DNA of 63,365 nt, counting the filler, from Conidiobolus incongruus B7586 (Eukaryota): assembly GCA_000697335.1 (NCBI GenBank). It is 7 parts of 7 records of this genome, joined end to end, with 100 filler letters (N's around TTAATTAATTAA, not from the genome) between each part and the next. Parts side by side here need not be neighbours in the genome. Positions count along the whole stretch, not along the records: positions 10,039 to 20,821 come from JNEM01006322.1; 6 more parts are not named here. The stretch is one strand, 5' to 3'. The notes below the pieces were generated by a model. That model was given only the letters and a program-made list of their open reading frames with translations, was not told the DNA's origin and did no database searches. Of this stretch, positions 312-56,865 are shown in pieces (position 1 is the first letter of the stretch; each line of letters begins with the position of its first letter). Made by a program: the position numbers and the translations under genes.

Positions 312-313
312 TA

Positions 314-1072
314 TTAACACTAATTAGTTAAATTATAATATCTATATCTATTAACTTTAATATTTGTTTAATATTTTTATCAATAAATCAACAAGTTTTA
401 ACCTTTATTTTATTAATTATAATAAACATCCTAATTTAATAATTATTTTAAAACTTTAAATCAACTTACCTTTAATTATTATTGAATTTTAATTTAATAT
501 TAATTATATTAATTCCCTTGTTAAATTTAACTAGAAAGAAAATTAAAAGATTATAAAACAATAATATTCAAAGTTATTTAAGAATTTTTTTAAATATAAA
601 ACTAATATGTTTATATATTTAGAACAATCTAATTTTAAACTTATCTTATTTAAATCTAGCTTAAATCTAAAATACTTGCTATTATATTATAGTCTATATA
701 AAATTTAATCTATTGATTTAAATTTTGAAAATATTATCTTAGAATTACCTTTAACTTTAAAGATCAACTTTACCTTTCACATATCTAAAATCAAACCTTA
801 TTTTAAAAATTTTAACTTTTTTTTAATTGATTAAAAACTCTAAAACTAGATTTAATTATCAATTAAAATAAAGTAAAAAAAATACTATATTGATTATATA
901 ATTAAATCTAAATCTATTAGGAATAAGCTTTATTTTTATATAAAATAAATATGTTATCTTATTAAAAAAACTATATAAGAACCTTTAGAAAATATTAAAA
1001 ATATCTTAATCTATTATACCAATTTACAAAAATCTAAAGAATATATCTCTTTTAAGAAACTTATTAGGAAAA
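314..1072 (+). mobile_element. Degenerate Ty3/Gypsy (chromovirus) pol 3' end: integrase C-terminus plus chromodomain
   Basis: Decayed reading gives FHISKIKPY (~775-800) and a chromodomain-like ..KSIRNKLYFYIK*ICY..KKTI*EPLENI (~905-1000). An LTR follows immediately. Confidence 0.6.
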
Positions 1073-1404
1073 TATTAAAAGATTAATTTTTTAAATTCTT
1101 ATATATACTTTTATATAATTTAATTAACTATAAATTATATAATTAATTTTTACTTTTATAATTAAATTAATTATATAAATAATATTAAATTATTTAATAA
1201 GTTAGGTTTTTTTTTTCTTTTTAATTTTTACTATTTTTATCTTTTTCATTACTTTTAAAATTGAAACTACTTTTTATTAATATTATAATATATTAACACT
1301 ACCTAATATAAATTTTAATATATTAATAACTTATCCTAATTCAAAACTTAATTAAATTTTGTTTATATTTGTATATTACAGCTATATTATAATATTATAT
1401 TCTA

Positions 1405-4400: not shown

Positions 4401-4552
4401 TTAATATAATTAGATCAAATATACTTAATTATAAATAAATAATATAAGTTTATTATATGTTTTAATTTAAATTAATTTGATTAAGAATTAACAGAATTAT
4501 TGATAATAATATATATAATTATAATTTTATAACTCACTTTTACAGGCTAGTA
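1405..4552 (+). mobile_element. Tc1-like transposon copy C (1405-1955 plus 3525-4552, ~1.58 kb), interrupted by copy B
   Basis: TIRs tactaacctataaaaataactcataaaat... and ...attttataactcacttttacaggctagta, flanked by TA. Decayed transposase motifs: GGLIIIQGYM..KVDEGINT (cf. GGSVMVWGC), F**DNT (cf. FQQDNA), *SFNFNLIKYL* (cf. QSPDLNPIEHLW). Confidence 0.8.
1956..3522 (-). mobile_element. Full-length Tc1-like transposon copy B (~1.57 kb), pseudogenised transposase
   Basis: TIR cactaacctacaaaaataagttataaaatcaaaaa at 1956 and its inverse ending at 3522. TA duplication at 1954-55 and 3523-24. Host copy C resumes in register afterwards. Confidence 0.85.
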
Positions 4553-4979
4553 TATGTTACATTACTTTTATATTAAGTTTTCCTCTATACTATATCAATA
4601 TTTATTACTATACTTATAAAATCTTTACTTAATATTATTAAACTTTATTTATTATCTTTTTACTTATATAAAATATTACTTATAGAACATATCTATCTAG
4701 TATATAAATAAGCGCTACTTATATTAATAAAGTATTTAAAACATTTTTATCTATATTTATCTTTTAATCTTATTTATATCTAAACAAATAACTACTCTCT
4801 TATATATATCAAAAATCAAAAAAAATTAAGTAAATAACAAATTAATTAAATTAATTATATTTAAAAATTTAATCTTAAGATAGAATATATTAAAAAAACT
4901 TATAATAATATTATTAACTTACTATTTAAAAGAATTAATTATATACCTCTGTAGTTAAAATATCAAAATCCTATTCCTT

Positions 4980-6930
4980 AGTTAAATAATATTATTATCA
5001 ATTATAAATTTAACCTATTTTAAAATATAAAGTTTATTTTAAATTATGATGATTAATTTAGCACTATTAAATCTTTACTTAACAAAACAAATAAAGTTAA
5101 AGTTTTATAATGTATAAAACAATATAATTTCTTCAATAATCTTTTTTATTATTAATTTTATATTTAATTTTTAATTTTTTAAATATCAAAGTTAAAACCC
5201 TTATTATATATTATAATAATATAATTAGTGATTATTAAAGTTAATTAAAATTTTATAAAAAAATAACATTAAATTTTTATTAATTATATATTAAAACTGA
5301 AGTTAAAAAATATATGCTCTGATATAATAAATACTAATATAATAAATCTAATAACTAACTATCTTTTAAAACTTTAAACTTTTTATCTATTTTTAAAGAT
5401 TATTTGAAAGATATTATTATAAATTTTACTAATATACTAAAGTTTAATACAGATTAAAATAGTATTATAATTATTGCTAATTAACTCATAAAAATACTAT
5501 ATTTAATCTTAATAAAATATTAAAAAAATATTAAAACAATTGCTAGATTATTGGTTTAATATATATTTTGATATTATTAGTTTTTTTATACCATTATAAT
5601 AAATTATGATACCTATTTTACTTCAAAATTTTAGATTACTTTTATAAAACTACTTAATTATTAAAATATTCTTAACTTTTCTTAATATCAACAAACTAAT
5701 AAATAATTAAAAGAATATATTTATATAGTTAAAAAAGCTTTAAAACTATATCTTAAATATAATATATTTAATTAAAAACAAATATTATCTTTTTTAAAAT
5801 TTACCCTCAATGGTTTTATTAATTTATCTATTAAAATAATTTTATTTTACTTGATTTATACTTATTATCCTAAAGTTTAATAATTATAAGATTTAATAAC
5901 CTAATTATTTAAAACTCAATTAACTTTCTAAAACACTATAATATATTATTTGTAAGTATGGTGGTAAATACCAATATAATACAAAAGAAAATTTTAATAT
6001 AAAAATAATATAACATAGAGTATAGTTTTATAATGTAGCTATAGTGTGCAAATATAAATAAAGTTTAATTAAGCTTCAAACTAGGATAAGTCACTGATAT
6101 ATTAAAATTTATATTAGGTAGTACCAATATATTGTAATATTGACAAGATATAGTTTTAATCTTAGAAATAATGAGAAAGATAAGAAATAATAAGAATTGA
6201 GAGAAAAAAGGAGAAACCTTGTTTATTAGATACTTTAATATTATTTATATAAATAATTTAGGTATAAAAATATAAATTAATTATGTAATTTATAGTTAAT
6301 AAAATTATATAGAAATATATATAAAAATTTAAAGAACTAGTTTATTAATATTATTAATACTTGCATAAGAAAAAATCACCTATATATAAAATAAACAAGT
6401 TATATATTTTAACCAACACCACTATTATATTAAAAATTATTTATCTAGGATATTAATAATAGTTTAAGAAAATAAAATTAAATCTTCTTATAATAAGAAA
6501 TAACTTGACTTTAAATTAAAACCAAACTAACTCAAACCTTATTTTATTATAGATAAAAGAAATCATTTTAATATCTATACTTTAGATTTATCTCAAAAAA
6601 TAAAAATTCATTTTATGTTCTACACTAGTATATTAAAACCATACTATAATCTATTATTATAGTTTAATAACTAAAGATATGAATATTATAAATTACCTTC
6701 TTAAAGTAACCAACAAGATTACCTTTTTATTATTAATAAAATTCTTAACCAAAAACACCATTATACCTAAGATTTATATTTTGTCTAATAGAAAAGATAT
6801 CTTAGAAATAAAGCTACTTGGGAATACTATAATAATGCTAAAAAGACCAATGCTTATTATAATAATAGTAAGAAACACTTAAAAATTAGAATATTTCCTA
6901 ATAAAAATACCTTAATTTTAAGGGATTATT
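4980..6930 (+). mobile_element. Second degenerate Gypsy/chromovirus integrase-chromodomain region, interrupted by a solo LTR (boundaries approximate)
   Basis: Decayed motifs YDTYFTSKF* (cf. DRDPRFTSKFW), QQTNK* (cf. PQTDGQ), IHFMFYTSILKPY (cf. IHPVFHVSLLKPY) and YFV**K (cf. YLVKWKG). Confidence 0.55.
5951..6350 (-). mobile_element. Solo LTR (400 bp), same family as 1073-4618 and 39824-40209
   Basis: Starts TGTAAG and ends ATA (mutated ACA). 5-bp target duplication TTATT on both sides. Co-linear with 39824-40209. Confidence 0.8.
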
Positions 6931-7171
6931 AGAGATTAAATTATTTTATCATTTTTATAACATATTAATTATATTTGCTTATTTTATTTTATCTTTTTAT
7001 TTATTTAATCTTATTTTGCTTTATTTTCTTTTTGAACCCTTACCAATCCTTAAATATAAAAAAACAACTATCATCAAATAAACAAGGAATTTTTTTTATT
7101 TTATTCATATTAAAACAATTAATATATATACTAACCTATAAAAATAAATTATAAAATTAAAAATATATATA

Positions 7172-8491
7172 TTAGTATGGAAATTAAGAAATGGCAAATT
7201 TTTTAATTTCTGATCTTTCAAACATATTATACATTTTGAAAGATTATATATATATAAAATATATAGGAAAATAAATATTTTCAAACTATATATATATATT
7301 CAATTTTAATTATTTTTTTTATTAAAATATTTTGATTTTAAAATTTACACTTAAATTTAATCATGCTTAAACTAGATTGTGATTATCAAAAGGCTTTTAT
7401 TTTTGTATCTTTAAAACTTAACCATAAACCCTCTAAAATCATCTAAAACTTACAAACAGTTTATAGAGATGGTGCTTTATCTAAAACTACCATATATTGC
7501 TGGATTTGTGATTTTAAAGCTGGAAGGGACACTATTCAAAATTTACCAAAATCTAGAAGACCAATTTCTACTGTTACTCTTTCACTTACCAATAGAGTAA
7601 AAAAATATATTAAGAAATACCCTTTTATTTCTGTTAGAGAACTATCAAAGTAATTTAATATTAATCATATAAGCATGTTATATTTACTTAAGTTTAAACT
7701 TAGATTAATTAATAAAAATGTAAAATGGATACCTTATAATTTAACAGAAGCCTAAAAGAAAACTAGAGTAGCTATAGCTAAACTAAACTTATTAAGGTAT
7801 AACCAAAAACAAAGGTTTTTACAGTGAATACTTGCAATTGATGAATTTTGGATTCCTTTATATAATCCTTTACCTAAAAATAAAACAAGATGTTAGGTTA
7901 AGCCAAATCAATCCCCTCCACAAATTCCAATGAATAAGCACTTTGAATATAAGTGAATGTTAATTGTTGTAATAGATTATAATGGTATATGGTTTTTTTA
8001 TTTAATACCTCAAGGAAAATCAATTAATAGTAAGTTATATATTACTTTTTTAAATAAAACAATTTTTAAATGGTGTTCTCAATATAAATTAAAGACACCT
8101 ATTATTTTGCATGATAATTGCAAAATACATAAAGCTAAAGCTGTAAAAGATTTTTTATATAAAAAAAATTGGAGGGAGTTACCACATCCAGTATATTCAC
8201 CTGATTATAATCCATGTGATTATAATTGTTTTGGACAATTAAAAAAACAGCTTACAGGAAAAAAAATTCCTGCAAACAAATTAAATTGGTTTGTAAAACA
8301 TCAAATTTCAGTCTTTAATAAAAAGAACTGTTTTTTAGATATTAGAAGCTTACTAAAGGTATAGAAAAGAGTTATTAATAATAAAGGAGGCTATTAATTT
8401 TATATTATTCATTAAATTTTATATATTATTTATTAATTTATTTGTTTAATTTTAATTTTAAAATTGTACCATTATTTAATTTCTACACTAA
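7172..8491 (+). mobile_element. Full-length mariner (DD34D) element, 1320 bp, subfamily 1
   Basis: TIRs ttagtatggaaattaagaaatgg and ccattatttaatttctacactaa, with TA duplication at 7170-71 and 8492-93. Confidence 0.9.
7363..8397 (+). pseudogene. Mariner transposase pseudogene (345 codons, several in-frame stops)
   Basis: ATG 7363 to TAA 8397 in one frame. Motifs WIPYNL (cf. WVPHEL), AIDEFW, LHDNCKIH and YSPDYNPCDY, with 34 residues between the second and third catalytic Asp. Confidence 0.9.
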
Positions 8492-10788
8492 TATTTCTAT
8501 TAATATCTTAATCAATTTTAATTTAAATAAACTTATAATAAACTATGTAATTAATATATACTTTTTATTTATAATATAATATATAAAGTTAAATTTAATT
8601 AATAATTAATTGATATATTAAAACTAAAAGCATATTTAAAATGAGTTATAAATTTGTAGGTTTTAGTATTAATAGAAAAATTAATATCTAGTATATCTAT
8701 CTTTTGCTTTTTTAACTTCTTTAAGTTTATAGGATATAGAGTCAATTAGTTTCTTATATTAAGCAAGATTAATATTATTCTAAGCTTCTTAAATATACTC
8801 TTGAAGTTGATTTAAATTTTTTGCTAGTGGGAAAGCTTTAATTAATTTTTTTAGTTAATCCCAAAGATGTTTAATTAGGTTAAAATTAAGAGATCAAAGA
8901 GGTTATTTCATAATAGTTATTTTATTAATTTTAAGCTATTTAATAATAGAATTTGTAATATAACAAGGTGTATTATCTTGTTGAAAAATAATATTTGATT
9001 TTTTTTATTTATACCATTTAATAGTTTTTTTCAATTTATTGTTTAAAATACTTTAATATATCTCAGTATTAATTCCCTTATAAACCCTACAAAGATACCC
9101 TACACCTAAAGATAATATATATCCCTAAACTATAATTTACCTACTATTATATTTTTGGGTTATAATAATATAATAATTATAAAGTAGTTTTTGATTTTTT
9201 TTGAAATATCTAGCTTTTTTATTAGATTTATTAAAATATATCTTTGTTTTATTAAATTAAATAACTTTACTCTAGTTAATTTCAATTCAACTTTAGTGTT
9301 GACATTTAAATTCCCACTTAGTTTTATAATAGTACTTTTTTAATTAGGTGTGTTTTTTTTTAAATTGTAAGTAATATCTATTCTAATATAAAATATATAT
9401 AATAATATTAATATTAATTAATATTCTTATATAGTTTTATAATTCTTGTTATACTTCAATAGTAATATTACACTTACCTGTATTAACTAATCTATAAATA
9501 TATTTTTTATTATCTTTATCTATAATTTTAATATACTTAAGTTTTAATTTAGGTGTTTTTTTAACATTGTTCTTAATAACCTTAGTTATAATAGATTAGT
9601 TAATATTAATAATTCTAGCAATCTTATGAGTTGATTTATTTTTATTATAAAGTTGATTAATATATAAGTGAACTTTTTTAAAGAGAGATTTAAACATTAT
9701 AATATTAATTTTAAAATATTATCTTAATAGTTTTATAATATATATAATATAACAAAAGAAAAAAAAGATATAAGTTTTGTTTTTTATATTTTTTGAACTT
9801 ATAAACCCATAAATTTATAACTCACCTTGGTTAAGTTTTAAGTTTTGATATATTAACCAATAGTTAATAAAATATAATTAAATATAGTTAGTTATAATCA
9901 ATTAATATAGGTAAATTATATATTTTAATTTAAATTTANNNNNNNNNNNNNNNNNNNNNNNNNNNNNNNNNNNNNNNNNNNNTTAATTAATTAANNNNNN
10001 NNNNNNNNNNNNNNNNNNNNNNNNNNNNNNNNNNNNNNAGTTAACTTAAATGGTTGAAATTGATTTCAAATTAAAAAATAAAATATATATTGTTATTATC
10101 AATTTAAACTATATATTATTTTGGATATCTTAAATTTTTAATAGAATATCATATTCTTATATCAAAATATTTGAATATCATATAATAAAAATAAAGGGTT
10201 ATGAAGTAATATATAGGGTTTTATATTAATATTTAAAAATAATAAATATTAAACTTTTATTAAATTTATTAAATAGGTTGAATATGGATCATTATTCATT
10301 AATTATTTAATTTTGACTTGAGGAATTCAAGTTTGATTATATTTGAATTTTTATATAACGTGGTCTAAAATTATAATATGCTAATTATTTAATTATATGG
10401 TAGTATTATTAAATTATATATAGATATAAATATATATTGCTAATATATTATCTCAAATTCGAAAATTAATTATTCTGATTTTATTTGTTACTTATTATTA
10501 TTTCAAAAAAACATGTTGAAAATGTGATATTCATATATATATATTTTGAAATACTATTATTTTAAAAATAATGAAGTGAATAAAGATAAAGACAAGTTAA
10601 TTCTATGATGAAAGTTGGTGATAATCCTAATACAGAAAGGATTTAAAATGAGATATATCTGAAGAAATAATATATATGAATTGATAAATTATTTATAATC
10701 ATTTAAAGTTTATGTAATAATTATATATAAAAGAAAAATATGAATGTCGTTGGAAAATACTTTCAAAAATAATATCAATATTAAGATA

Positions 10789-10869
10789 CGACAAGAGCAG
10801 GATTTGAACCTACGCGGGAAATCCCATGTGCTTTCTAGGCACACGCCTTAACCACTCGGCCATCTTGTC
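10789..10869 (-). tRNA. tRNA-Ser (anticodon AGA)
   Basis: Minus strand GACAAGATGGCCGAGTGGTTAAGGCG-TGTGC-CTAGAAA-GCACA, long variable arm, GTTCAAATC T-loop, acceptor stem closing ..TCTTGTC-G. Confidence 0.93.
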
Positions 10870-11373
10870 ATAAAGCTCTTTCCAATTAAGAGATATTTCT
10901 CAACTTATATCAACATTTCGTAATTACTATATTTGAAATACTCATTTTTTTAAAAATCATAATTATAAATATTAATTTATTAAAACTATGTCAATCTCAC
11001 AATTTATATAATTTTAATTCCGAATTTTATTTATATAAATAATTAATATATTATTTATTCCATTTAAATTTATTATCATTTTTATTATTTTAAAAAAAAA
11101 TTTTATTTAAATTTGTATTATATTATTATATTTAAAATAAAAATAAAAATAATATATTAAATAAATTAATATTAAACCTTTTAGATTTAAAAAGATTAGA
11201 TAAAATTTGATTTGATTAGATTATAAATAATTTAAGAACAAATAAATATTAAAATAAATATATTAAAATAAAAAAAAAAACATTAAAAAACAGTCTAATT
11301 TATTTTATAATTAAAATAAAATTAATTAATTTATACTTTATTTAAGAATTCATATTATACAATAATAAAACAT

Positions 11374-11583
11374 TTATCGAGTGAAGTTAAGTTTTCTTGT
11401 ATTGCACCAGAAATCGACTGGTGGTAGATCTGAGTGTTTGGTCAATGTGGCATCCGTCAAAACCAATGAAGCCCTTCGAGATGGTGTAGGAGAAGTGACG
11501 CATGATGTAGATGGAGTGCAATTCGTGGAGTTAGTAGATGGCATAGTGTGTTTTGGCATTTCCGTAAGATATGTATATTCCAT
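11374..11583 (-). CDS. Ser/Thr-ladder microprotein family, copy 1 (69 aa, most divergent)
   Basis: GC-richer ORF in AT-rich context. MEYTYLTEM...NSTNCTPSTSCVTSPTPSRRAS aligns without gaps to five paralogs. TATAAATA (minus) at 11648-11655. Confidence 0.8.
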   Translation of the reverse strand: MEYTYLTEMPKHTMPSTNSTNCTPSTSCVTSPTPSRRASLVLTDATLTKHSDLPPVDFWCNTRKLNFTR

Positions 11584-14105
11584 TAAAAATATGAGTAGTA
11601 TGATTTAAAAGTTTAGCGAATAATACTGATTTTTAGTAATAGTACGTTATTTATAGTTTTTGATTTTTACTATTTTAATAATCGAAATTCAAATTAGTCC
11701 CAATAATTGACCAAATATTCCAATCAGCTTCAAAAGGCAGTAGTGATGCTGCATTCCTTCAGCCCCACATAATGGGAATTATTCATGAATCTTCTAGATT
11801 TTCTGGTCAATTTACTCATTTGTGATACGCAAAAAAATTGCCGCTATTGATCTATCTCCTATCATTTAACCACGTTATTTTCAATATATCACTCAAATTC
11901 AATATAAGAGCTGCAATAAACAGTGTTTTTGTATATAATTATATATACTTATCTAGTACATCTTTACTATTGTATCTTCTAATGAAAAGTTAATTTTCAA
12001 TTGAATAATAATAATAATGAAAAAGTTATTCTTTAATTCTCACTGATGTAACATTTTTAAATCATTAATCCAACAATTGAAAATATGAGAAAATTAATAT
12101 TATTTAAAATTCTAATAATATCAAAATAAAAAGGGTTCAAGATATTTTAAGTATTGTTAAATATTAGAAAAAAAATAAACAATAACAACAAATGATGGAA
12201 TTCTTTTTTTATTTGTGATAAATTTTATCACCTTTTAATATACAATTTAGTTTATTATTAGCCTATAGATTCCAAATTTGGCAATTTTTTTACAAATAAT
12301 AATTAGCAAGAATTAATCATTATTACCTAATTTTTTAATTTTTTTATAGTACCGAATATTTATAAACTTTATTACATATTTTTAATTAAAGAATTGATGA
12401 ATATTATAAATTGAGTTTTATAAAATGATTTATGTCTAATAGAGTCTAATTTATAATTAGTAATTTAATATAGATAAATCTTAAATTATTTAGATCTTTG
12501 GGATTTATAACAAGTAATAATAAACCGTATTTAAATAATTCAAGCATTTAGACTTCAACTTCGAAATTCAAGTTCCTGAATAAGTGTAATAGCCTATTTT
12601 AAATTGATAAATTTAAAATTTGAAAAACACGATTATAATGTTTTACAATGATTTCATCAATTTCAAATTTTAGTTCGGAATTTAATAAAAATAATATATG
12701 AGTTAAATTTGAATTATTGATATTTATATCTTATTTTAATAATAAAATACGTGGCAATTAGAATAAAAAAATCATTGAATATGTGTTTTAATTATTCAAA
12801 TTTATATATTAATATTAGAATCTTATTTGTCCCCTTATACTTTAGAATATAATATATTAGAATTATTCTTTTTTTAATAAACTAAAATTACTCAAACAAA
12901 TTTAATTAAAATTCAAATTTATAATTAAAGGTAATACAAGCTATAAAATTTACTTATAATAAATTAGTTTATAATCATAACGAATTTTATCTAAAAATAG
13001 TCAGTGTAAAATAATAGAAAAATTTTATATTTTCATCTATAGTCAAAGATTGGGTTTATTAACTTTCAATTTGATATAATTCTGAATAATATTGTCTAAT
13101 ATCATATATATATATATAGAAATTATTATTTTTAAAAAATCTAATGAATTTAAAATATGCAATATTAAATATTGTTGATATAATTATAATATTTAGTAGT
13201 GCCAGTATTATAATTAAAAGTATTAACGTAAATAAAAAAATTTCAAGATTTTAAAACTGCCAATTTCTTTTAATAATTCTTTTATTTACATAGGTTAATT
13301 TAAAATTGAATATTGTTTCAAGAAAAGGTATTGGAATAGCGTTAAAATGCTTATATTTTTATTAATCAAAAAATTTAAATATTTTCCCAGATGTTTATAT
13401 ATACATAATTATTTGAAATGTACTAGCAATGAATATAGTTTGAATTTAAGAAATACGTGAGATATTTTTGATTTAGTTATTAAATATTTTCAATTAATAA
13501 AGGTACATTGAAGTTGTATATTAATTTGGTTACTGATAAAAAGCAACAAAAAACTTTAAGTATATCAATGGATATTATAATATTTAATATATCTATAAAA
13601 TCATAAAATCGGAAAATGAGTATAATACAATTTAAAGCAAAATTAATTAGAAAACTAATTAAATCTAGTTTGCGTATTTTAGGGAATATTCAAATTTAAT
13701 ATTAGTAAATTAAAGTTATTTAGATTCTATTTTTTTAGAATTTAATAATAATAACAATAATGCATTATGCCAGGTACATTAAATTATGAAAACTAATTAT
13801 ATCAACATTTAAATAATTAAATTTGGTATAATTAAACAATTTTCTAGAAATTTATCAAGTATTCCAAAAATATTAAGATCCATTTTTTACTCATAATACT
13901 AATACAGTAATATTTAATTAGGCATTAATTTGTATTTTTTGAATGTTATGACAACAAATTTTATAATTATCTTCAAATTATAATTAAAATAACAAAAGTT
14001 GGGCTTATATGATTTCATTTCATTGTGTTTAGATGAATATATAAAGGATTGAAGAATTAGTATTGGTAGTATCGTTAATTATAGTAAACAAGTGTAGATA
14101 TCAAA

Positions 14106-14300
14106 ATGAAGCTACTTCACATTCCACTATTCGAAAAGCATCAATCTTCTAATCCTACTACAGCTCAAAATACTCCTTCCACATCTCGAGTTACATCGCC
14201 CGTAGGATCACCCAGACAATCTATGGATTTACACCATACGAATGCTAAGAATCATAAAGAAGAACATTTGCCATATCATTTGATGACCTTCATCAAATAA
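14106..14300 (+). CDS. Ser/Thr-ladder microprotein family, copy 2 (64 aa)
   Basis: ..SSNPTTAQNTPSTSRVTSPVGSPRQS..LPYHLMTFIK. TATATAAA at 14038-14045. Confidence 0.85.
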   Translation: MKLLHIPLFEKHQSSNPTTAQNTPSTSRVTSPVGSPRQSMDLHHTNAKNHKEEHLPYHLMTFIK

Positions 14301-14969
14301 GCTAACGTTTCATGATCTTAAATATCTAACGCAATTATTTAATGAATTTTTTTATTGTAATTAAAAATATAAAATATTAAATGTAAATAAAAATAATATA
14401 ACATTAAAATTATTTATTTGTTTAAACAATATATTTTAAATTTATTATTCATTTTAATTAATTTATTCTTTTTTTGCATTTATATTTGATTATTATAAAA
14501 AATGAAAAAAAATATATTGATAATAGATTATTTTTTTAATATATTGAAATTAGTTCAATAACTATATAGTTGAATAATATATAATGTGAATATTACAATT
14601 AAAATTTTGTGTTTTTATATTTATTCATAATGATTTAATTTTTAGAATATTTTTAATATGAAAATTTATATAATCTCAAAATTTAATTAAATTTAATAAA
14701 GATATATTTTTAATATAAATTTATTATGAACAAAATCTAAAATTAAAATTTTAATTGATTTAAAAATAGATTATTTTGGAAATATTCGGAATTAGTAAAC
14801 TTTGAATAAAATTATTTAAAAAATTTATTAAAAGTGGAGTAAAATCCAAATTTTGGAAAAATTTATGAAATAATTGAGAATAATTTTAATTGATATAAAT
14901 AGAGCATTAAGTTACTTACAATTATCATCAAACAATCAGAATTACAAACAGATAACATTGCAATTAACT

Positions 14970-15164
14970 ATGGATCAAATTCACTTGGCTGAATTAGAAA
15001 GACATCGCTCTTCTGCTCCTAACTCTGCTCCTAACTCTCCCTCAGTTTCCCGAGTTGCTTCACCCGTTGGATCACCAAAAGTTTCAATGGAATCAGAAAG
15101 ACCAAACAAACGCCAATCTGTACACCATGTTCTACCATTTCAATTGATGAGCTACATTAGATAA
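14970..15164 (+). CDS. Ser/Thr-ladder microprotein family, copy 3 (64 aa)
   Basis: First ATG is at 14970 (the ORF track starts at an upstream TTG). MDQIHLAELERHRSSAPNSAPNSPSVSRVASPVGSPKVS..LPFQLMSYIR. TATAAATA at 14894-14901. Confidence 0.88.
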   Translation: MDQIHLAELERHRSSAPNSAPNSPSVSRVASPVGSPKVSMESERPNKRQSVHHVLPFQLMSYIR

Positions 15165-15821
15165 CTCCACTTGTACAAATTCATCTCATGTTTTATAACT
15201 CTTGTTGATTTTCTTTGTATTATAATATTAAAATAGCATATGATTAATAAACTTAATTCAAATTTGATATAGTAATTTGTTTACATTTTTCTTTGATTCA
15301 TTATAATAAAATAATTTATGTGAAATAGAGTTGATCATTGATTCAATACCCAAAAATATCAATATGCTCTAAGTTAAGTTTTTATTATAATATATTAAGC
15401 ACTGAATTATTATGTAGTATTTAAAACTTAGAGTAATGAATAATCAAATTTTAATTTTTTTTAGAAATCAAGACATATATTATGATATTATTCTTTTAAT
15501 TATTCCAAGTATATTGTTATGAGTATAAAATTGAACAGAATTATAAATTTGGTTAGAATAATTTGAATATATTAATATTAATATGATTTGTAAAATATAT
15601 AGTTAATAATGAATTGAAATTTTTGGATTGAATTCATACAAGAATAAGGTATTTTTTTTAAATATTAGAGTAATTAATTGAATATAATTCATATATTATA
15701 TGGAGCATGTAAAATATTCTAAATTGAATATTTTTACATTATTGAAAAATTTTGAAATATTTAATTATCAAAGTAAAATTTAAGTACTACAATAATCTAA
15801 ATATTTTATTGATTTTATTTC

Positions 15822-16360
15822 TGTGGCAATTCCTACTTGATTGATATCTTTTCTCACTCAAATTCACTACCAAGTTTCTGATTAGCCAAATCAGGCCTTA
15901 TCAATATTCTACTAGTCTATGTCTGAGTGGCCTCATTGTTACTCAGCCGCTGCATACTTATGCCTATATATTTCACTTAGTTATAAGAAAGACTCTTCTT
16001 CTCCTCTCTTTTTTACACAAACAAACCTTTTACCTAATTTCAAAAACAATCCCTTTTAGTATACTCAACTAGTTACCTATAGTTCCACTTGAGTCATCTT
16101 TCATTACTCATTTTCAACTCCTTCCTATTAATATTTTGTGATTCCATCTTCTTAGAATATCGGATCCTAACGCCGCCACTGTTGCCGCTGGTCTAGCCGC
16201 TCTTTACAACGGCCAGTTTACGAGTAATTATGACCGGATAGCCAGAGAACTGAAATTCGGTAGTTTATCGCAGTTAGTAGGTGCGATGCTGCACAATCTG
16301 GCCTATAGAATAGAAGTGTCAGTGCCCTTAATGACACTCCAAGAACTAATAACCTCCACA
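15822..16360. mobile_element. Putative solo LTR (539 bp) immediately upstream of tRNA-Lys
   Basis: TGTGG...CCACA inverted termini. Near-perfect 5-bp target duplication ATTTC/ACTTC. GC-richer than flanks, with no long ORF. Confidence 0.6.
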
Positions 16361-16369
16361 ACTTCATAA

Positions 16370-16442
16370 GCCCGGCTAGCTCAATCGGTAGAGCGTGAGA
16401 CTCTTAATCTCAAGGTTGTGGGTTCGACCCCCACGTTGGGTG
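16370..16442 (+). tRNA. tRNA-Lys (anticodon CTT)
   Basis: GCCCGGCTAGCTCAATCGGTAGAGCG-TGAGA-CTCTTAA-TCTCA..GGTTCGAC.., followed by a T6 Pol III terminator. Confidence 0.95.
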
Positions 16443-16689
16443 CTTTTTTCCATTCCAATATTTTATTTATTTTATTATAGTTTTCCATTAATGTTTCTAA
16501 TAAATTATCTTAAATTTAATTATTATATTAGTTAATTTTTTGAGATATACAAATTATTATTTGGTTAATATTATCATTTTTATATATAAAATTTAACTGA
16601 GTTTATTATAAAAATAATTAAATTACATAATATAAATTTCAATATAATATACACTATTCTAGAATCGGTGTGATGTAACCACTATCGTA

Positions 16690-16884
16690 TTATCTAGTGT
16701 AAGATAGTATTTGATAAGACAGGGTATTATAATTAGTATTGGTGTTTATATGCCTTTGTACAGAGATTGAGTTTCTTGGAGATCCAATGGGAGATGTAAT
16801 ACGCGAGACAGAAGGTGTGTTATAAGCAGAATTGGGAGTGGAAGAGTGACTTCTTTGTAATTCAGCCAAGTAAGTATAATCCAT
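16690..16884 (-). CDS. Ser/Thr-ladder microprotein family, copy 4 (64 aa)
   Basis: MDYTYLAELQRSHSSTPNSAYNTPSVSRITSPIGSPRNS..LSYQILSYTR. TATAAATA (minus) at 16952-16959. Confidence 0.88.
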   Translation of the reverse strand: MDYTYLAELQRSHSSTPNSAYNTPSVSRITSPIGSPRNSISVQRHINTNTNYNTLSYQILSYTR

Positions 16885-18358
16885 TGTTAATTATTAAATA
16901 AAGTGTTTATATTAAATTGATTTTTTGAACAAATTGTAACAACTAGAATGGTATTTATAGTTTTTTGATTTTAAATCAAATTAACATCAAAATATTGATT
17001 AGTCTTGATAACTTAACCTAATGGACTTATCGCCCCAACTATTCATTCTAAATATTTCATTAATTCAACAATTATTTTAAAAATGTTAGTTAAGAATAAC
17101 AAAGAACATTTTGGAACTTGATTTCTAAAAATAATTACTACTTAATCTAGTCATCATCACTTAAAGATTTTTCACAAGAAATTTGAATATATTCAATTTT
17201 TTGAAATTTTCCAATATTAGTAAAATTCAAAAGTTATTTTAAAAATTGAAGATAAAATGTTGGGGTATTCCGTTTAATTATTTCCTATATTAGATTTGTG
17301 TATCCCGATTACTATATCAATCTCAACATCAGTAATATTTTATACTATAATAATGTTTTCAAGTGTACAATGTAATGACAATGATAATTTTCAATTGATA
17401 CAAAATTTAATTATTAAATTAATTAAAAATTGTACATTTGGAATTATTTGTGATTGAATTTTCTTAATTCTAATCATATAATTAGCAATTGTAAAGTCCA
17501 AATATAACTTTATATAAATATTTTTTTTATCTTTTTTGTTTAAAAAACACGTAATTCAAAACTAATATCCAAATAATCGCAGCGAATAAGATAGCTTCGA
17601 ATCTATATTATTCATATTTTTAACCAGTTAATTCTTGATTTTTTAATAGTTAAGATAGAACAAAAATTGTCTATTATGATATTATATGTTATTAAAATTC
17701 AAATTTGAGTAAGCTAATTGACAAATCATATTAAAATTGTTCATGAATTTAATGTATTTTTATTAATAAATTGACTCAAGTACAAATAATTTTTTCAATT
17801 TCCAAACTCATCAATTTTGTCATAATCAATATTAATTATAGCCTATGAAACAGTTTGTTTATCAATACCTTTGAAATACTAATGGATAAATGTTAATATC
17901 ATTAATAATATTTATCCATTGGTTACAACAATCTCAACCTTAATTTTGTCAAAATGCAATCATTTTCAAAAACAAATTTTATATTGACTTTAAAATTAGC
18001 CTTAACTCATACAATTGTATTCTATGTATTATGAAAATGAGTCAAGTTATTTTAAATTTTATATAATTCTATATAATTTTAGTTGAAATTTGTAATAAAA
18101 AATAATTAATCCAATTTATCACTAAATTCAATATAGTAAACTGACTATTATTACATCATTAAACCTATCCACCTATCAAGTATCTATCCAATTTCCTTTT
18201 TAAATTCACCTATAAACCAGTTGAATAATCACTGTAAACGAAAAGTTGAACTGTATTATTAATTCGAATCAATTGATGAGAGTATAAATACTACTCAGTC
18301 TATTATGACAAAAGCATCAATACATTCATTTGCATATACAAAACACTTATTGCTACTC

Positions 18359-18553
18359 ATGGATCAAATCTATTTGGTTGATTTAGAAAGAGCTCGTTCT
18401 TCTGCTCCCAACTCCGCTTTTAGTACTCCCTCATCTTCTCAAGTCACATCTCCAGTTGGATCTCGAAGGGTCTCTATTGAATCGAACACATCCCATAGGA
18501 ACGATTCCAAACATTACCGCATTCAATATAATTTGATGAGCTATATCCGATGA
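18359..18553 (+). CDS. Ser/Thr-ladder microprotein family, copy 5 (64 aa)
   Basis: Start chosen by homology (MDQIYLVDLE..); the in-frame ATG at 18305 is only ~15 nt past the TATAAATA at 18283-18290. ..SSAPNSAFSTPSSSQVTSPVGSRRVS..IQYNLMSYIR. Confidence 0.85.
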   Translation: MDQIYLVDLERARSSAPNSAFSTPSSSQVTSPVGSRRVSIESNTSHRNDSKHYRIQYNLMSYIR

Positions 18554-19566
18554 GGAAAATGTTGAAAATCTTCAAGTTGTATTATATCACTGTTATCTTC
18601 ATTTATATGTATCATATTTAAAATTTTTAACTAATAAAAATTATTCATAACACTAAAATTTTAATATTTTATTTTTAAATTTGTTTGATATTAAATATTT
18701 TTATTAAGGTTTACTATTATCTCAATTAAAAATTATATTAAATTTATTGAACGCAAAATCATTTTGATTAATCTTTCAGTTATTTTTATTTAAAATTAAA
18801 AAATTAAAATAACGAATATTATGTCAATTATGAAAAAATAGCTGAAATATTCAAAATTTTCATCAAATTATATTATTAGGTTACTTATTTTTATACCAAT
18901 TTACTATAATTTTATTACTGATCAAACATTATTATTAGTGTGAATATCTCTACATATATCAAGTTTGGCCATATTAATCCATAAAATTTGTATTATAGGC
19001 GGGTTTTTTATTATTCTACTTCATTCATCGAATTAATCAGGCATAGATCAAATTATTACTAAATATACATTTAATCAATTATTCCACTTATAAAATAAGT
19101 TATAAAAAATCTATTTTGTTACTTAATAAATCATGTATATATATGCTTATTAAAATTAGGAAATGTGATAATTGATATACATTTTATGAATTTGGAGAAT
19201 TATAAATATTATAACATTAAATACATCATTATTGAATGTTCAGAATAATTATAGAAATATAATTAATTTGAAGATAATTTTAATTGCAAAGTCAAACTTG
19301 GAATTTGGTAAATTGATTTTGTTAGTTCAACATTAAAATAATTTGGAATTTTGGAAATAATCGGATTCGGTGTATTTTATTCTAAAGATTTTTTCCTGAA
19401 ATTTTAGTCAAAGTTGGGTTATTTCCAGTTTTTGGGAAATAATGATTTAATCTCTCAGTTATATTAATAATTCAGTTTAATTCCAATTGGTATAAATACT
19501 CCATCATGTTACTTGCAAACATCATCAAACAATCAGAATTACAAACAGATAACATTGCAATTAACC

Positions 19567-19761
19567 ATGGACCAAATTCACTTGGCTGAATTAGAAAGAC
19601 ATCGCTCTTCTGCTCCTAACTCTGCTTATAACTCTCCCTCAGTTTCCCGAGTTGCTTCACCTGTTGGATCACCAAAAGTTTCAATGGAATCAGAAAGACC
19701 AAACAAACGCCAATCTGTACACCATGTTCTACCATTTCAATTGATGAGCTACATCAGATAA
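19567..19761 (+). CDS. Ser/Thr-ladder microprotein family, copy 6 (64 aa, near-identical to copy 3)
   Basis: Differs from copy 3 by one residue (P>Y). TATAAATA at 19491-19498. Confidence 0.88.
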   Translation: MDQIHLAELERHRSSAPNSAYNSPSVSRVASPVGSPKVSMESERPNKRQSVHHVLPFQLMSYIR

Positions 19762-20479
19762 CTCCACTTGTACAAATTAATCTCATGTTTTATAACTTAA
19801 TTGCTCCTGTATTATTACACCAAGATAGAATATTAATTAATAAATAAAATTTCAATATATTCAATATCATAAATAGTTAAGTTATTTAAATTTTGAAATA
19901 TATAAATTTTTAATGATTAAATCGAAATACATCATTCAATATTCGACCAGTTAATTTATATATATTATTTGATATTAAAATAATATATTTATTCTCATTA
20001 TTACCTATATTCTAAAATTTAAAATAATTATCACCATTATTTTTAAACTATTAAATTATTATTTTTGGCTATAGTAAAATAGATATTTTTTAAAAAAAAA
20101 TAATAATATATATTTCTGCATAATTATTAAAAAACTAATATGATATAGTTAATTGAATTATATTTCTATTTAATAAATTTTTAAAGTTTTATTTTTATTT
20201 TATATCATCTAATTAATTAATTATAATTAAAATTTACTTAAAATCTTTATAATTCATATTTGATTGTTTAAATTTAATTGATAAAATTTCAAGGATTTAT
20301 ATCACCATGAATTGAATATATAGTAGAATATAATAATTTTGAAATATTTGAAGGAATTTATTTATAATTGCTTTTTATAAATAATTTATTATATAATATG
20401 AATTTTCAATATAATTTAATATAACATAAGTGTTTTTGAATTAAACCATAATTTATCTTATAAATAATAATATTAATAT

Positions 20480-20821
20480 AGAAAATAAATAATAACCTAA
20501 TTTTAATTTTAAAATTAAAGTATTATTATTATATAAAATATCAAAATTAATATATAATATAAAACCAATATTCTTTTTTATTATCAATAATTTTTTGCTA
20601 TAGTTTTAGCATACTTTTAATATCTAAAAAATAATTATTTATTAAGGATTGAAATTTAATATTTTATAAAATTATTTAATTTACTAATAAAAGTTTTTTT
20701 AAGTATATTTTTTAAATTACTAAAATAATTATATGTAAATAGGCTATAATCTAATATATATATTAGATATAATAGCTTTTTTTCTAGTTTTTTTAAATAA
20801 ACAAACTATTATTAATTTAAT
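20480..20821 (-). mobile_element. Heavily decayed mariner 3' fragment at gap edge
   Basis: Resembles the reverse complement of ~8150-8460 and the fragment at 48370-48640. Confidence 0.5.
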
Positions 20822-22244
20822 NNNNNNNNNNNNNNNNNNNNNNNNNNNNNNNNNNNNNNNNNNNNTTAATTAATTAANNNNNNNNNNNNNNNNNNNNNNN
20901 NNNNNNNNNNNNNNNNNNNNNTACTTCAAAATAATATATAATATTAAATTAAATTAAAATAATATTATTTAAAAATTCCTATAAACTATTTTTTTAACTA
21001 TAAGAAAATATTAATTATTATAATGGATTATCAAAATATATAGTTTTATTATTTAATTTGTAAATATAAAATAATTAAAAAAAGTTTTATACTTTTTGTT
21101 AATTAAAATAATTTTAATTTATGATCTGATAATAAATTATAACACTTGTTCGTTTTTATAAAATAATATTCCGATTTAGTTACTTCTTATATTTTTCCTT
21201 TTTTATCTAAACCTTCCTGAAAATTATTTCTTACTTTATCATACTTTAATTATCTAAACCTTATCTTAATAAAGCCACTAACTTATATAGCCATAGAAAA
21301 ATAATTTTAAAAAATTAATCAATAATTAATTCTCTAGTTTTTTTGGATAACCTAAGTAACTTCAACTTTAAAAAAATTATTATAGCTATATTAGTTTCTA
21401 GCAATAGGATAATATATATAATAATTTAAAAATATCAAATTAAAAATTTTCTAAGTAAATAAACTAGAAAACATAATTATATCTAATATATTTTTTAAAT
21501 TAAAACCAATATAATTATAATAATTATAAATAAAAAAATTTTTCAAGAAAAGATTTTTATATATAAATTAAATTAATATATATAATATTAAATTTAACTT
21601 TTTGAAAAGAGAATTATTTTTTATTTATTATAAGATTGCTATATATATAGCAAAAAGTTATTAATAATAATGAAAAAATTGATTTTATCTTATATATTAT
21701 TTTTTTTAATAATATACAAATTATTTTATTTAATCCTGATAAATTTTATTATTATTTAGTTATTATATTAATTTTAAAAATTAATTAAAATTTAAAACTT
21801 ATTAAAATTGGAGCTTTATATCAAATATATATAGATTTATATTAAGATTAAATCTTAATATTTATTAATATTAATTATTTAATAAAAAGGAGAATGTTGT
21901 GTTTAATGGTATATTGCTGGAAACTATATACCAATATAGAATAATATTTGTTATTTATGGTAAATAACATAATTTATCTAGATAATGAATAAATATTAAT
22001 AATGATATTTGGAATAATTAGATTTGAAAATAAAAATAAAAAAAAACATATATTAGATTAGGTGCGAAAAAAATGAAGATGAATTATATATATAATTACA
22101 CATTTTGAAAAAATATTTAAAAAGCTTTAGAGAATATAGATTGAAATTAATATTTAATAAAATTAGTATCAATTAAATTAAATTTTATTAAGAGAGTAAG
22201 GAATATTTAAATTATTCAAATTATAAATTAGAAGGAAGAATTAA

Positions 22245-22318
22245 GCTTCCATGGCGCAATTGGCTAGCGCGTCCGACTGTTAATCGGGAGGTTGGTGGTT
22301 CAAGCCCACCTGGGAGCG
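22245..22318 (+). tRNA. tRNA-Asn (anticodon GTT)
   Basis: GCTTCCATGGCGCAATTGGCTAGCGCG-TCCGA-CTGTTAA-TCGG..GGTTCAAGCCCACCTGGGAGCG, with a downstream oligo-T. Confidence 0.93.
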
Positions 22319-23295
22319 TAATTCTATTTCGAGACATTTTTTTTATTTTAGTAATCAAACCTCATTCCTCTAATATTACTTATTATTTTAATAATTTTCT
22401 CAAATAATTATTTAAAAATTTAAATTTTTTGTTTTCAGTAAATCATTGTTATGATAGGAAATAACAATGTCAATCACTCAAGAAACTGCAATTACAACAC
22501 TGAATTAACAAGTCAAATTGGGGCACGCCCATTTTCTGAACTGGGGGTTACGTTTCTTATTCTCACTGAGTCATTTCTATCCATAAAAATCAACAATGAA
22601 AACTAATATAAGATTATCATGAGCAAAATAATAAATATAACTCTTTTATCATTTCAAAAATATCCAGTCTCTAAGTTTTTCTCGTAGTCCTATCAAAAGC
22701 ATTGAGTCGTAATAAGCGTAAGATATTTACTTTACTCGAAGAACCCGATTTACAGTAAGCTGTTTTCAACTCATTTGGAGAACCCATTAATTTCCCCCTA
22801 ACTCTGTGGTAATTTATCGTTTACACTGGTGATTCCCTATTTGAGCTCTAAAAGTCTATTTCCTCCCATAATTACGGTCGTCACTTACAACAAAAACAAA
22901 ATCATTAGTTAAATAACTCAATATTTTCAAAATTTTATCTAAACTATAAATTTCATATAATTTTATTTTAATTTTTGGTTTCTTTATATCACAAGGAATC
23001 TCGTTTATCAGTTTTTCCATAGTTGCGATATTTCCAAACCTTAAACTGCTGTTTTATTTTCAATTATTGTTTTCATTGAATTATTAGATATTATTATTGA
23101 TTTCTTCTAAACTAAAAAATTTAAAGAGATATTCCATAATTTGAAATTATTTAAATAAAATTCAACTTGATAATGTAATCCCATAATAATATCATTTCAT
23201 AATAAAAATCCAATTAAAGCCAATTTGAATTTAATTAAATTTTATTACAAATCAAAATTTAATAATAAATTAATCCATAATTCAAATTATTCAAA

Positions 23296-24651
23296 ATGGG
23301 AGGGCATGGTGAAATTCCATTAGACCAAATCCCTATGGAAGTAATTCAAGTAGATCCTAATGATTTAAAAACCAACATCAGTCTCATTAAACCAGGTTGT
23401 ACTTTATATGTTGAAAAGGAAGACGGTGGCGAGACTTTACATAGACCAGCTCAAGTTTTATATGTTCAAAATCCTACAGATCCTGTTAACATCCGACTTT
23501 ATGTTCACTATCATCGCTTCAATAAACGTCTTGATGAATGGGTCCAAATTGATAGAGTTGACTTTAGTAGAGGTATTGAATTTCCAAAGCCAGAAGCTGA
23601 AGGAACACCAAATAAAAGCAGAAGTAATAAAAAGAAAGCTAAATCTAACCAGAAAAAGGGAAGAAGTCAAGAGCTAATTCAACAAAGTTTGGAGGATGAA
23701 ACTGATAGTGAAGCTGTATCCGAAGTGACTAATGATGATGACGAAAACACAAAGAAGCGCAAGACTCCAGTTCGCTCTGGATCGATGAGAGCTCATACAG
23801 ATAATCTGGCCAAGGTGAAAAATTTAAATAAGATTCAAATAGGAGGATACGAAGTAGAAACTTGGTACTTTAGCCCATATCCTGAGGATTTTGCATTTTC
23901 TCCTCTGGTTTATATTTGTGAATTTTGTCTGTCTTATTATAACGATACGGTTGCTTATCAAAGACATCGCACCAAATGTACCCTCCTACATCCTCCAGGT
24001 AATGAAATCTATCGTCATGAAGGCCATTCATTCTTTGAGATTGATGGTAAAAAACAAAGAACTTATTGCGAAAATCTCTGTCTACTTTCCAAACTCTTTT
24101 TGGATCACAAAACCCTCTACTATGCTATCGACCCTTTTTTATTCTACATCCTCACTAAGCAGGATGAAAAAGGTCATCACCTCGTTGGATACTTCTCCAA
24201 AGAGAAAAACAGCCCCCAAAACTATAATGTTGCATGTATTTTAACTTTGCCTCAATACCAACGTATGGGTTATGGTAGATACTTGATCCAATTTTCTTAT
24301 GAGCTTAGTAAAATAGAAAAGAAAACAGGTAGTCCTGAAAAGCCTCTCTCTGATCTTGGTCTTATGGGATATCGTGCATATTGGTACGAAGTATTAATCA
24401 ATCTCTTGAGAAATATGCAAACCACCACTATTGATGCCCTTAGTAAAGAAACTAGTATTACGCCAGAAGACATTCGAACCACACTCCTTGAGAAGGAGGC
24501 ACTTAAAACCTTCAAGGGAAATTATGTCATCTATCTCAAAAAAGATGACTTGGACAAGTATGCCAAATTGAGTAAGAAAAAGCGTCTCAACGTTGATCCT
24601 TCTAAAATTATATGGACTCCTCCTTTGTTGTTAGATTACTTAAAGCATTAA
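23296..24651 (+). CDS. ESA1: MYST-family histone acetyltransferase (Esa1/Tip60/KAT5-like), intronless
   Basis: Tudor-knot chromodomain (YVHYHRFNKRLDEWV), WYFSPYP, C2HC finger (CEFC..H..C), LFLDHKTLYY, acetyl-CoA motif QRMGYG, and GSPEKPLSDLG. Confidence 0.93.
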   Translation: MGGHGEIPLDQIPMEVIQVDPNDLKTNISLIKPGCTLYVEKEDGGETLHRPAQVLYVQNPTDPVNIRLYVHYHRFNKRLDEWVQIDRVDFSRGIEFPKPEAEGTPNKSRSNKKKAKSNQKKGRSQELIQQSLEDETDSEAVSEVTNDDDENTKKRKTPVRSGSMRAHTDNLAKVKNLNKIQIGGYEVETWYFSPYPEDFAFSPLVYICEFCLSYYNDTVAYQRHRTKCTLLHPPGNEIYRHEGHSFFEIDGKKQRTYCENLCLLSKLFLDHKTLYYAIDPFLFYILTKQDEKGHHLVGYFSKEKNSPQNYNVACILTLPQYQRMGYGRYLIQFSYELSKIEKKTGSPEKPLSDLGLMGYRAYWYEVLINLLRNMQTTTIDALSKETSITPEDIRTTLLEKEALKTFKGNYVIYLKKDDLDKYAKLSKKKRLNVDPSKIIWTPPLLLDYLKH

Positions 24652-32470: not shown

Positions 32471-32609
32471 TATAATAGATAAGATTCTTATTAATATATT
32501 GGAATAATGATTATCTTTTGTAATGTTATTTTACCTTATATAATCTCAATATATAAGAAATTCATATTATTTGAATTTATATTAATCAATTATATATCTA
32601 ACTAAACAT

Positions 32610-56828: not shown

Positions 56829-56865
<37 letters not shown>

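What the first reader, a model, noticed from the sequence alone, without database searches (positions are those of the whole stretch)
14970..15164. Invariant i+4 Ser/Thr ladder: candidate GSK3 relay-phosphorylation substrates or decoys
Seen: copy 3 reads S-APN-S-APN-S-PSV-S-RVA-S-PVG-S-PKV-S, seven hydroxyl residues spaced exactly 4 apart. The register holds in copies 2, 4, 5 and 6 (7 sites) and copy 1 (6 sites) while intervening residues vary. The last rung is RRAS (copy 1) or RRVS (copy 5), and SP(R/K)xS in the others. Established: GSK3 phosphorylates S/T-x-x-x-pS/T sequentially C-to-N after priming; RRxS is the PKA consensus; SP is the CDK/MAPK consensus; the mammalian glycogen synthase GSK3 region (SVPPSPSLSRHSSPHQS) resembles SAPNSPSVSRVASPVGS. 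Inference: these are stand-alone phospho-ladder peptides acting as kinase sinks, phosphodegron timers or switchable inhibitors, with paralogs wired to different priming kinases.
Basis: partly seen in the sequence, partly recalled or inferred. Interest (0 to 1): 0.85.

Follow-up and report, generated by a model that had tools for sequence, protein, structure and literature searches.

The report
Fungal microproteins built on serine ladder
Six clustered genes of a Conidiobolus-like fungus encode 64-69-residue proteins whose best-conserved feature is a serine/threonine at every fourth position; they are likely substrates for step-by-step phosphorylation by the kinase GSK3, which would act as a switch or destruction timer, but their targets are unknown.

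Summary
Six single-exon paralogues (11374-19761) carry Ser/Thr at residues 15, 19, 23, 27, 31, 35 and 39. They look like real genes: a TATA box 68-76 nt upstream and AATAAA 70-86 nt downstream in 6 of 6. Ten relatives were found, four named Conidiobolus coronatus hypothetical proteins and six unnamed; none matches a known family. Over 16 sequences 108 of 112 rungs are Ser/Thr, four rungs are invariant Ser, and there is no indel between 15 and 39. Rung codons are under strong purifying selection (omega 0.05; other ladder codons 0.23; linker 1.14). The model is predicted disordered, with short helices at both ends. Position 36 is only Pro (9) or Arg (7), which fits two priming modes. Best reading (inferred, no phosphorylation data): primed GSK3 relay substrates, in which the ladder switches or destroys a small binding protein whose conserved N-terminal helix meets an unknown partner. 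Pure kinase sink is less likely. The module is known; a stand-alone expanded microprotein family built on it was not found in print.

The parts
14970..15164 (+). Copy 3 ORF, 64 aa (the finding)
15012..15086 (+). Ladder codons of copy 3, Ser15 to Ser39, every fourth residue
14894..14900 (+). TATA box of copy 3 (76 nt before ATG)
15246..15251 (+). AATAAA, candidate poly(A) signal of copy 3 (+82)
11374..11583 (-). Copy 1 ORF, 69 aa, most divergent; RRAS at last rung; TATA at 11649-11655
14106..14300 (+). Copy 2 ORF, 64 aa; sister of C. coronatus CONCODRAFT_76828; TATA at 14038-14044
16690..16884 (-). Copy 4 ORF, 64 aa; has no lysine; TATA at 16953-16959
18359..18553 (+). Copy 5 ORF, 64 aa from the second ATG (an in-frame ATG at 18305 lies only 22 nt after the TATA start at 18283 and is probably not used; inferred); RRVS at last rung
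19567..19761 (+). Copy 6 ORF, 64 aa, 5 nt and 1 residue from copy 3; TATA at 19491-19497
14869..15200 (+). Recent 332-nt duplication shared with 19466-19797 (94% identical), covering TATA, leader and ORF

Best explanation
These six genes encode small, predicted-disordered proteins with a selected Ser/Thr at every fourth residue, and they are likely primed GSK3 relay substrates in which full phosphorylation would switch off or destroy a small binding protein. Inferred steps: (1) a priming kinase phosphorylates low on the ladder: a basic-directed kinase such as PKA at Ser39 in Arg36 forms, a proline-directed kinase at Ser35 in Pro36 forms, or a DYRK/Yak1 kinase at R-x-x-Ser31-Pro; (2) GSK3 walks upward four residues at a time; (3) the doubly phosphorylated Thr23-Pro-x-x-Ser27 forms a Cdc4/Fbw7-type degron, and the top rung next to the N-terminal helix may add a 14-3-3 site; (4) the conserved N-terminal helix (residues 4-13), and in one subfamily the C-terminal helix, binds a target that is not identified. 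Paralogues would give the same output from different upstream signals. Odds by step: GSK3-type relay substrate about 0.7; output through degradation or a binding switch about 0.65 of that.
For: Genes are real: TATA at -68 to -76 and AATAAA at +70 to +86 in 6 of 6, rough corrected p 1.5e-5 and 1.8e-5 counting 5 independent copies; coding GC 0.35-0.42 against 0.07-0.29 in flanks. Register is selected: omega 0.05 at rungs, 0.23 at other ladder codons (difference p 0.014), 1.14 in the linker (five copies, copy 1 left out). 4 changes at 7 rung columns on the tree, mean 0.57 against 3.4-4.7 in the other three phases. 67 of 70 rungs in 10 outside homologues; no indel from 15 to 39 in 16 of 16. Motif counts of 16: R28-x-x-S31-P 12; [S/T]23-P-x-x-S27 14; S31-P-x-x-S35 15; basic37-x-S39-hydrophobic 15; Pro36 9 and Arg36 7 with no third residue. 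Literature passages: GSK3 consensus and priming, PKA as a primer (PMC5954166); DYRK consensus Rx(x)S/TP and GSK3 priming (PMC7658070; PMC3466549); yeast Cdc6 TPTTS degron made by Cdk1 plus Mck1 and read by Cdc4 (PMC4501359); Mck1 and Yak1 act together in starvation (PMC12027387). Model: pTM 0.15, helices only at 4-13 and 57-63. Ends are constrained: omega 0.44 and 0.34.
Against: No expression, phosphorylation, half-life or partner data. Kinase motifs are short and common; an unrelated window protein has a run of 6. Homologues were found with profiles that reward the rung columns, which inflates their conservation; the rungs were also chosen after seeing the window copies. Copy 4 has no lysine and copy 5 has one, which is awkward for ubiquitin-driven turnover. 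Four rungs are strictly Ser (16 of 16), whereas a GSK3 relay would accept Thr. The 14-3-3 pattern (recalled consensus) is in only 8 of 16. Only two to a few closely related species are sampled. I did not confirm that this fungus has GSK3, Yak1 or Cdc4 genes; that rests on general knowledge of fungi.
Confidence: 0.47

Rival explanations
1. Decoys: the ladder itself is the product. The proteins soak up GSK3, a phosphatase, 14-3-3 or an F-box protein and so buffer a pathway. Lysine-free copy 4 would be a non-degradable competitor.
For: The ladder is 25 of 64 residues and the most constrained part. No folded domain. Copy 4 has 0 lysines. The family is expanded, and TATA-containing genes are often strongly inducible (recalled).
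Against: Both ends are under purifying selection (p 0.004 and 0.001), and [D/E]8-[L/I]9-E10 is kept in 12 of 16, which points to a further partner. Most members have 2-8 lysines. A sink needs high abundance, which is unmeasured.
Confidence: 0.18
2. Phospho-regulated disordered proteins read by other kinases (CDK, MAPK, DYRK, PKA, Aurora) without a GSK3 relay. The period of four is left over from old 12-nt duplications and is kept because each site is needed on its own.
For: Rungs 23, 31, 35 and 39 each have a kinase context of their own. A 12-nt tandem is visible in copies 3 and 6, and lag-12 DNA identity off the rungs is the highest of five lags in 4 of 6 copies, though only 0.37-0.44.
Against: Ser27 (16 of 16) and Ser19 (15 of 16) have no proline after them and no conserved upstream basic residue, so a primed i+4 kinase explains them best. 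There is no indel in the ladder, while the linker length varies.
Confidence: 0.2
3. APC/C-binding microproteins: the C-terminal Ile-Arg of copies 3, 5 and 6 mimics the IR tail of APC/C coactivators, and the ladder regulates it.
For: IR tails bind Apc3, and an MR tail in Nek2A mimics them (PMC5717348 passages). 4 of 16 members end in IR and 8 of 16 in Arg or Lys. The tail is predicted helical and constrained.
Against: 12 of 16 lack IR, and one whole subfamily has a different tail. I saw no C box in the alignment. The PDB match to Emi1 has E 2.1, which is not significant.
Confidence: 0.06
4. Precursors of modified peptides (leader, variable core, follower), like the amatoxin MSDIN family (recalled), with residues 41-55 as the core.
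For: Conserved 1-40, freely varying 41-55 of fixed length in five copies, conserved 56-64. Small, intronless, multi-copy genes.
Against: The variable part is neutral, not diversifying (omega 1.14, p 0.66) and is hydrophilic. The follower is absent in the five-member subfamily. No processing enzyme lies next to the cluster; the nearest annotated neighbours are a transposase fragment and a MYST acetyltransferase, and a tyrosinase fragment lies about 25 kb away.
Confidence: 0.04
5. Non-coding repeats or dead copies; the ladder is chance plus recent duplication.
For: No RNA or protein evidence for these copies. One outside homologue (P0005) looks decayed, with 5 of 7 rungs.
Against: Synonymous divergence is about 0.8-1.2 in the ladder, with open frames of the same length in five copies; omega is well under 1; promoter and poly(A) spacing are conserved; and relatives are annotated in C. 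coronatus.
Confidence: 0.02

Closest known systems
GSK3 relay substrates (glycogen synthase; NFAT SP repeats primed by DYRK; Ci/Gli primed by PKA)
   Same: Ser/Thr every fourth residue with a priming context at the C-terminal end; DYRK-type and PKA-type primer motifs (passages).
   Different: There the ladder regulates a large enzyme or transcription factor. Here it is about 40% of a 63-70-residue protein with no folded domain, and no sequence homology was detected.
Cdc4/Fbw7 phosphodegrons made by GSK3 (yeast Cdc6 T368-S372, Eco1; c-Myc T58-S62)
   Same: T-P-x-x-S at 23-27 has the pattern of the Cdc6 TPTTS site; further S-P-x-x-S units follow at 31-35 and 35-39.
   Different: Here the degron-like unit sits inside a seven-rung ladder; one member lacks lysine; binding is untested.
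Rcn1/RCAN calcineurin regulators and other small phospho-timed fungal regulators (Sic1, Sml1; recalled)
   Same: Small regulators switched and degraded through primed phosphorylation; Rcn1 S113/S117 is a Mck1 target.
   Different: No Pfam match to any such family; far shorter; expanded as a tandem cluster; target unknown.
C. coronatus hypothetical proteins CONCODRAFT_2430, 76828, 77099, 19175
   Same: Same family: 66, 44, 31-38 and 47% identity to copy 3 in the alignments. 76828 and 2430 have consecutive accessions (KXN74619.1, KXN74620.1), like adjacent copies 2 and 3.
   Different: Unannotated; a search for CONCODRAFT with the species name found 0 papers.

Membership tests
Primed GSK3 relay substrate | Tandem S/T-x-x-x-S/T sites in fixed register | tested here: met
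   108 of 112 rungs in 16 sequences, no indel
Primed GSK3 relay substrate | Register conserved more than neighbouring Ser/Thr | tested here: met
   67 of 70 against 18 of 30 in homologues; omega 0.05 against 0.23; ascertainment caveat applies
Primed GSK3 relay substrate | A priming-kinase motif at the C-terminal end | tested here: met
   Arg36-basic37-x-Ser39 in 7 of 16, Ser35-Pro36 in 9 of 16, R-x-x-S31-P in 12 of 16; motif match only
Primed GSK3 relay substrate | Priming-dependent C-to-N phosphorylation by GSK3 | not testable with these tools
   needs a kinase assay
Cdc4/Fbw7 phosphodegron | S/T-P with a second phosphosite 3-4 residues on | tested here: met
   14 of 16 at 23-27, Thr-Pro in 12 of 16; criterion from PMC4501359
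Cdc4/Fbw7 phosphodegron | Lysine available for ubiquitination | tested here: inconclusive
   copy 4 has 0, copy 5 has 1, the others 2-8
Cdc4/Fbw7 phosphodegron | Phospho-dependent F-box binding and turnover | not testable with these tools
   needs binding and half-life assays
APC/C IR-tail proteins | C-terminal Ile-Arg across the family | tested here: not met
   4 of 16
Glycogen synthase, RCAN or any Pfam family | Sequence or domain homology | tested here: not met
   Pfam: 0 families for 10 of 11 members and one sub-threshold mL59 match, E 0.015; PDB: no relevant hit
Secreted peptide or effector | Hydrophobic signal peptide | tested here: not met
   highest 11-residue hydropathy 0.0-1.2 in the six copies; no dedicated predictor was run
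Hydrophilins / LEA-like | Gly over 6% (recalled definition) | tested here: not met
   Gly 0-5% in 16 of 16

The most novel reading that the evidence does not exclude
A dedicated class of stand-alone phospho-ladder microproteins: a seven-step GSK3 counter with swappable priming inputs, expanded as a gene cluster so that different signals (PKA, CDK/MAPK, Yak1) each get their own timer or decoy for the same machinery, including a lysine-free, non-degradable competitor.
Probability: 0.2. Interest if true: 0.78.

Novelty: new variant of a known kind. Interest (0 to 1): 0.52.

Why it matters
GSK3 ladders are normally control regions of large proteins. A natural 64-residue protein that is largely a seven-rung ladder, with paralogues that differ at one priming-determining residue, is a ready-made minimal system for asking how relay phosphorylation counts, delays and gates degradation. 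It also marks an unannotated regulatory gene family in entomophthoralean fungi. The limit is range: the named members all come from one species, and no function is shown.

Tried and rejected
No whole genome is held for the window, so copies elsewhere in this genome, and its GSK3, Yak1 and Cdc4 genes, could not be checked. RNA: no RNA holder listed for 11000-20200; this is no evidence either way. Metagenome scan with P0001 gave 2 loci from 598 pattern matches and stopped after 14 of 64 parts; both are chance matches in unrelated bacterial- or phage-like DNA and were dropped. ESM Atlas: no usable hit for copy 3, and one 0.77 lead for P0003, below the useful level. PDB sequence hits (chlorophyll a-b binding protein E 0.013-0.066, Emi1 E 2.1, a designed repeat protein E 0.03) were rejected as composition matches. 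No fold search was run, because the model has pTM 0.15. No complex prediction was run, because no candidate partner sequence was at hand. No consensus splice donor in 6 of 6 coding regions, so spliced longer forms are unlikely. Rfam found only three tRNAs in 10000-23000. Promoter scan of 15 recalled motifs: only an AP-1-like site was in 6 of 6 promoters, nominal p about 0.001 before correction and with mixed variants and positions; not relied on. Likeness to the metazoan Cdh1 N-terminus, the eIF4E-binding motif, the ABBA, LxxIxE and PxIxIT motifs and the Axin helix was judged by eye against recalled consensuses and did not hold across the family. RVxF is in 1 of 16. Independent origins of Arg36 were not shown. 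Earlier scan findings: none.

Full report
Setting. The window is very AT-rich eukaryotic DNA. The named relatives of the finding are all Conidiobolus coronatus proteins, while none of the 8 window sequences looked up is in the collection letter for letter. I infer a Conidiobolus-like fungus that differs from the reference strain. No whole genome is held.

Observation. The ORF at 14970-15164 encodes 64 residues. Five paralogues lie at 11374-11583 (-), 14106-14300 (+), 16690-16884 (-), 18359-18553 (+) and 19567-19761 (+). A tblastn of all six against the window found no seventh copy. Ser/Thr stands at 15, 19, 23, 27, 31, 35 and 39 in 41 of 42 positions. Shuffles give p 3e-5 to 6e-4 for copy 3 and up to 0.029 for the most Ser/Thr-rich copies. 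Of 11 other long ORFs in the window none has a run of 7, one has 6 and one has 5.

Are they genes? Each has a TATA box starting 68-76 nt before the ATG (6 of 6) and an AATAAA 70-86 nt after the stop (6 of 6). Background rates for such spans are 0.054 and 0.066, which gives rough corrected p of 1.5e-5 and 1.8e-5 on five independent copies. Coding GC is 0.35-0.42 against 0.07-0.29 in the flanks. No consensus splice donor lies in any coding region. A codon model on the five 64-residue copies (copy 1 left out for its indel; copies 3 and 6 are nearly identical) gave omega 0.44 for residues 2-13, 0.05 for the seven rungs, 0.23 for the other ladder codons, 1.14 for 41-55 and 0.34 for 56-64. Omega = 1 was rejected everywhere except 41-55, and rungs differ from other ladder codons at p 0.014.

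Family. Searches found 1 hit of 1 candidate, 1 of 36, 5 at E up to 0.001 among 1.84 billion representatives of all lengths, all 63-70 residues long, and 8 of 32: ten distinct relatives. Four are C. coronatus hypothetical proteins; six are unnamed. Two are longer (93-94 aa) through unrelated tails that depart from close sisters. So at this sensitivity the ladder unit stands alone and is not a piece of a larger protein. Copy 2 pairs with CONCODRAFT_76828 (support 100/99), whose accession is next to that of CONCODRAFT_2430, which suggests that the cluster predates the split of the two lineages. A five-member subfamily has a different C-terminus and always Arg36. In 16 sequences Ser27, 31, 35 and 39 are invariant, rung 23 is Thr in 13, and there is no indel from 15 to 39. 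In the ten outside homologues rungs are kept in 67 of 70 cells, against 18 of 30 for the three off-register Ser/Thr columns defined on the window copies (Fisher p 2e-5, cells not independent). On a tree the rung columns change 4 times in all, against means of 3.4-4.7 per column in the other phases. Caveat: the homologues were found by profiles that reward these columns. No Pfam family, PDB chain or Atlas cluster explains the family. The model has pTM 0.15, with helices at 4-13 and 57-63 only.

Mechanism. GSK3 needs a phosphate four residues C-terminal to its site, and priming raises its activity on peptides more than 1000-fold; PKA is among the primers (PMC5954166, passages). The family offers three entry points. 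Ser39 has a basic residue at -2 and a hydrophobic one at +1 in 15 of 16, and a second basic residue at -3 in 7 of 16 (PKA-like; consensus recalled). Ser35 is followed by Pro in the other 9. Ser31 sits in R-x-x-S-P in 12 of 16, the DYRK consensus, and DYRKs are known GSK3 primers (PMC7658070 and PMC3466549, passages). In yeast the GSK3 Mck1 cooperates with the DYRK Yak1 in starvation (PMC12027387, passages). Position 36 is only Pro or Arg, one base apart in the window copies; whether Arg arose more than once is open (p 0.114). Ser27 and Ser19 have neither a following Pro nor a conserved upstream basic residue, which a primed relay explains better than independent kinases. For the output, [S/T]23-P-x-x-S27 (14 of 16) has the pattern of the Cdc6 TPTTS degron that Cdk1 and Mck1 make for Cdc4 (PMC4501359, passages). 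The preference for Thr at this one rung would fit a phospho-Thr-Pro reader (recalled). The constrained ends suggest a binding function that the ladder controls. All of this is inferred from motifs and selection; nothing was measured.

Against. There are no expression or phosphorylation data (one search listed no RNA run, which is no evidence either way). Copy 4 has no lysine. Strict Ser at four rungs is more than GSK3 needs. The 14-3-3-like pattern is in 8 of 16 and the IR tail in 4 of 16. Some 12-nt periodicity remains in the DNA, so the register may have begun by duplication, although selection now keeps it. The taxon sample is narrow, and the metagenome scan was cut short and gave only chance hits.

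What is known. The ladder and the degron are textbook modules; membership in any named protein family failed. Ten literature searches were run. Those aimed at prior description gave 0 papers (CONCODRAFT plus species name), 2 unrelated listings (microprotein, GSK3, decoy) and 1 unrelated listing (Conidiobolus plus glycogen synthase kinase); one search listed 20 of 1,160 papers, none on this family by title or abstract start. I read passages of six papers, no whole text and no supplements. Supplementary expression tables of Conidiobolus studies could bear on whether these genes are expressed; I did not look at them. The library lacks most subscription papers.

Verdict. A real, selected, unannotated family of fungal microproteins organised around an i+4 Ser/Thr ladder. 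It most likely works as a primed GSK3 relay that controls the life or binding of a small regulator (0.47); independent multi-kinase sites (0.2) and a decoy role (0.18) are the main rivals. New variant of a known kind; interest 0.52.

Noticed in passing
window 10788-10870 (-), 16370-16443 (+), 22245-22318 (+): Three tRNA genes (Ser-AGA, Lys-CTT, Asn-GTT) flank and interrupt the cluster.
   Followed up: no
window 7957-8364 and repeats across 1-10000, 31300-32500, 48300-49800, 56700-57900: Mariner-type DDE transposase and HTH fragments, with many direct and inverted repeats; these may have aided the local duplications.
   Followed up: partly
window 9939-10038, 20822-20921, 32023-32122, 49476-49575, 57350-57449, 59750-59849: Six pairs of 44-nt N runs 12 nt apart, probably assembly gap markers; they cause the largest repeat family.
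   Followed up: no
window 23296-24651 (+): Intronless MYST (Esa1-like) acetyltransferase, the nearest conserved gene to the cluster. Further off: CDP-alcohol phosphatidyltransferase, aspartyl protease, tyrosinase fragment, haem oxygenase.
   Followed up: partly
window 15800-16370: GC-richer island (31-46%) between copy 3 and tRNA-Lys, with only 46-49-residue ORFs and no assigned identity.
   Followed up: no
P0006 against P0003; P0009 against P0007: The longer C. coronatus model CONCODRAFT_19175 departs abruptly from its 88%-identical 70-residue sister near the end, which suggests a mis-spliced gene model; P0009 likewise runs on past its sister's stop.
   Followed up: no
650 nt upstream of all six copies: An AP-1/Yap1-like site occurs in 6 of 6 promoters (background 0.31 per span); one of 15 motifs tried, weak.
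   Followed up: partly
window 43785-44627 (+): An unrelated 280-residue ORF has its own i+4 Ser/Thr run of 6, and the ORF at 33900-34625 a run of 5.
   Followed up: no
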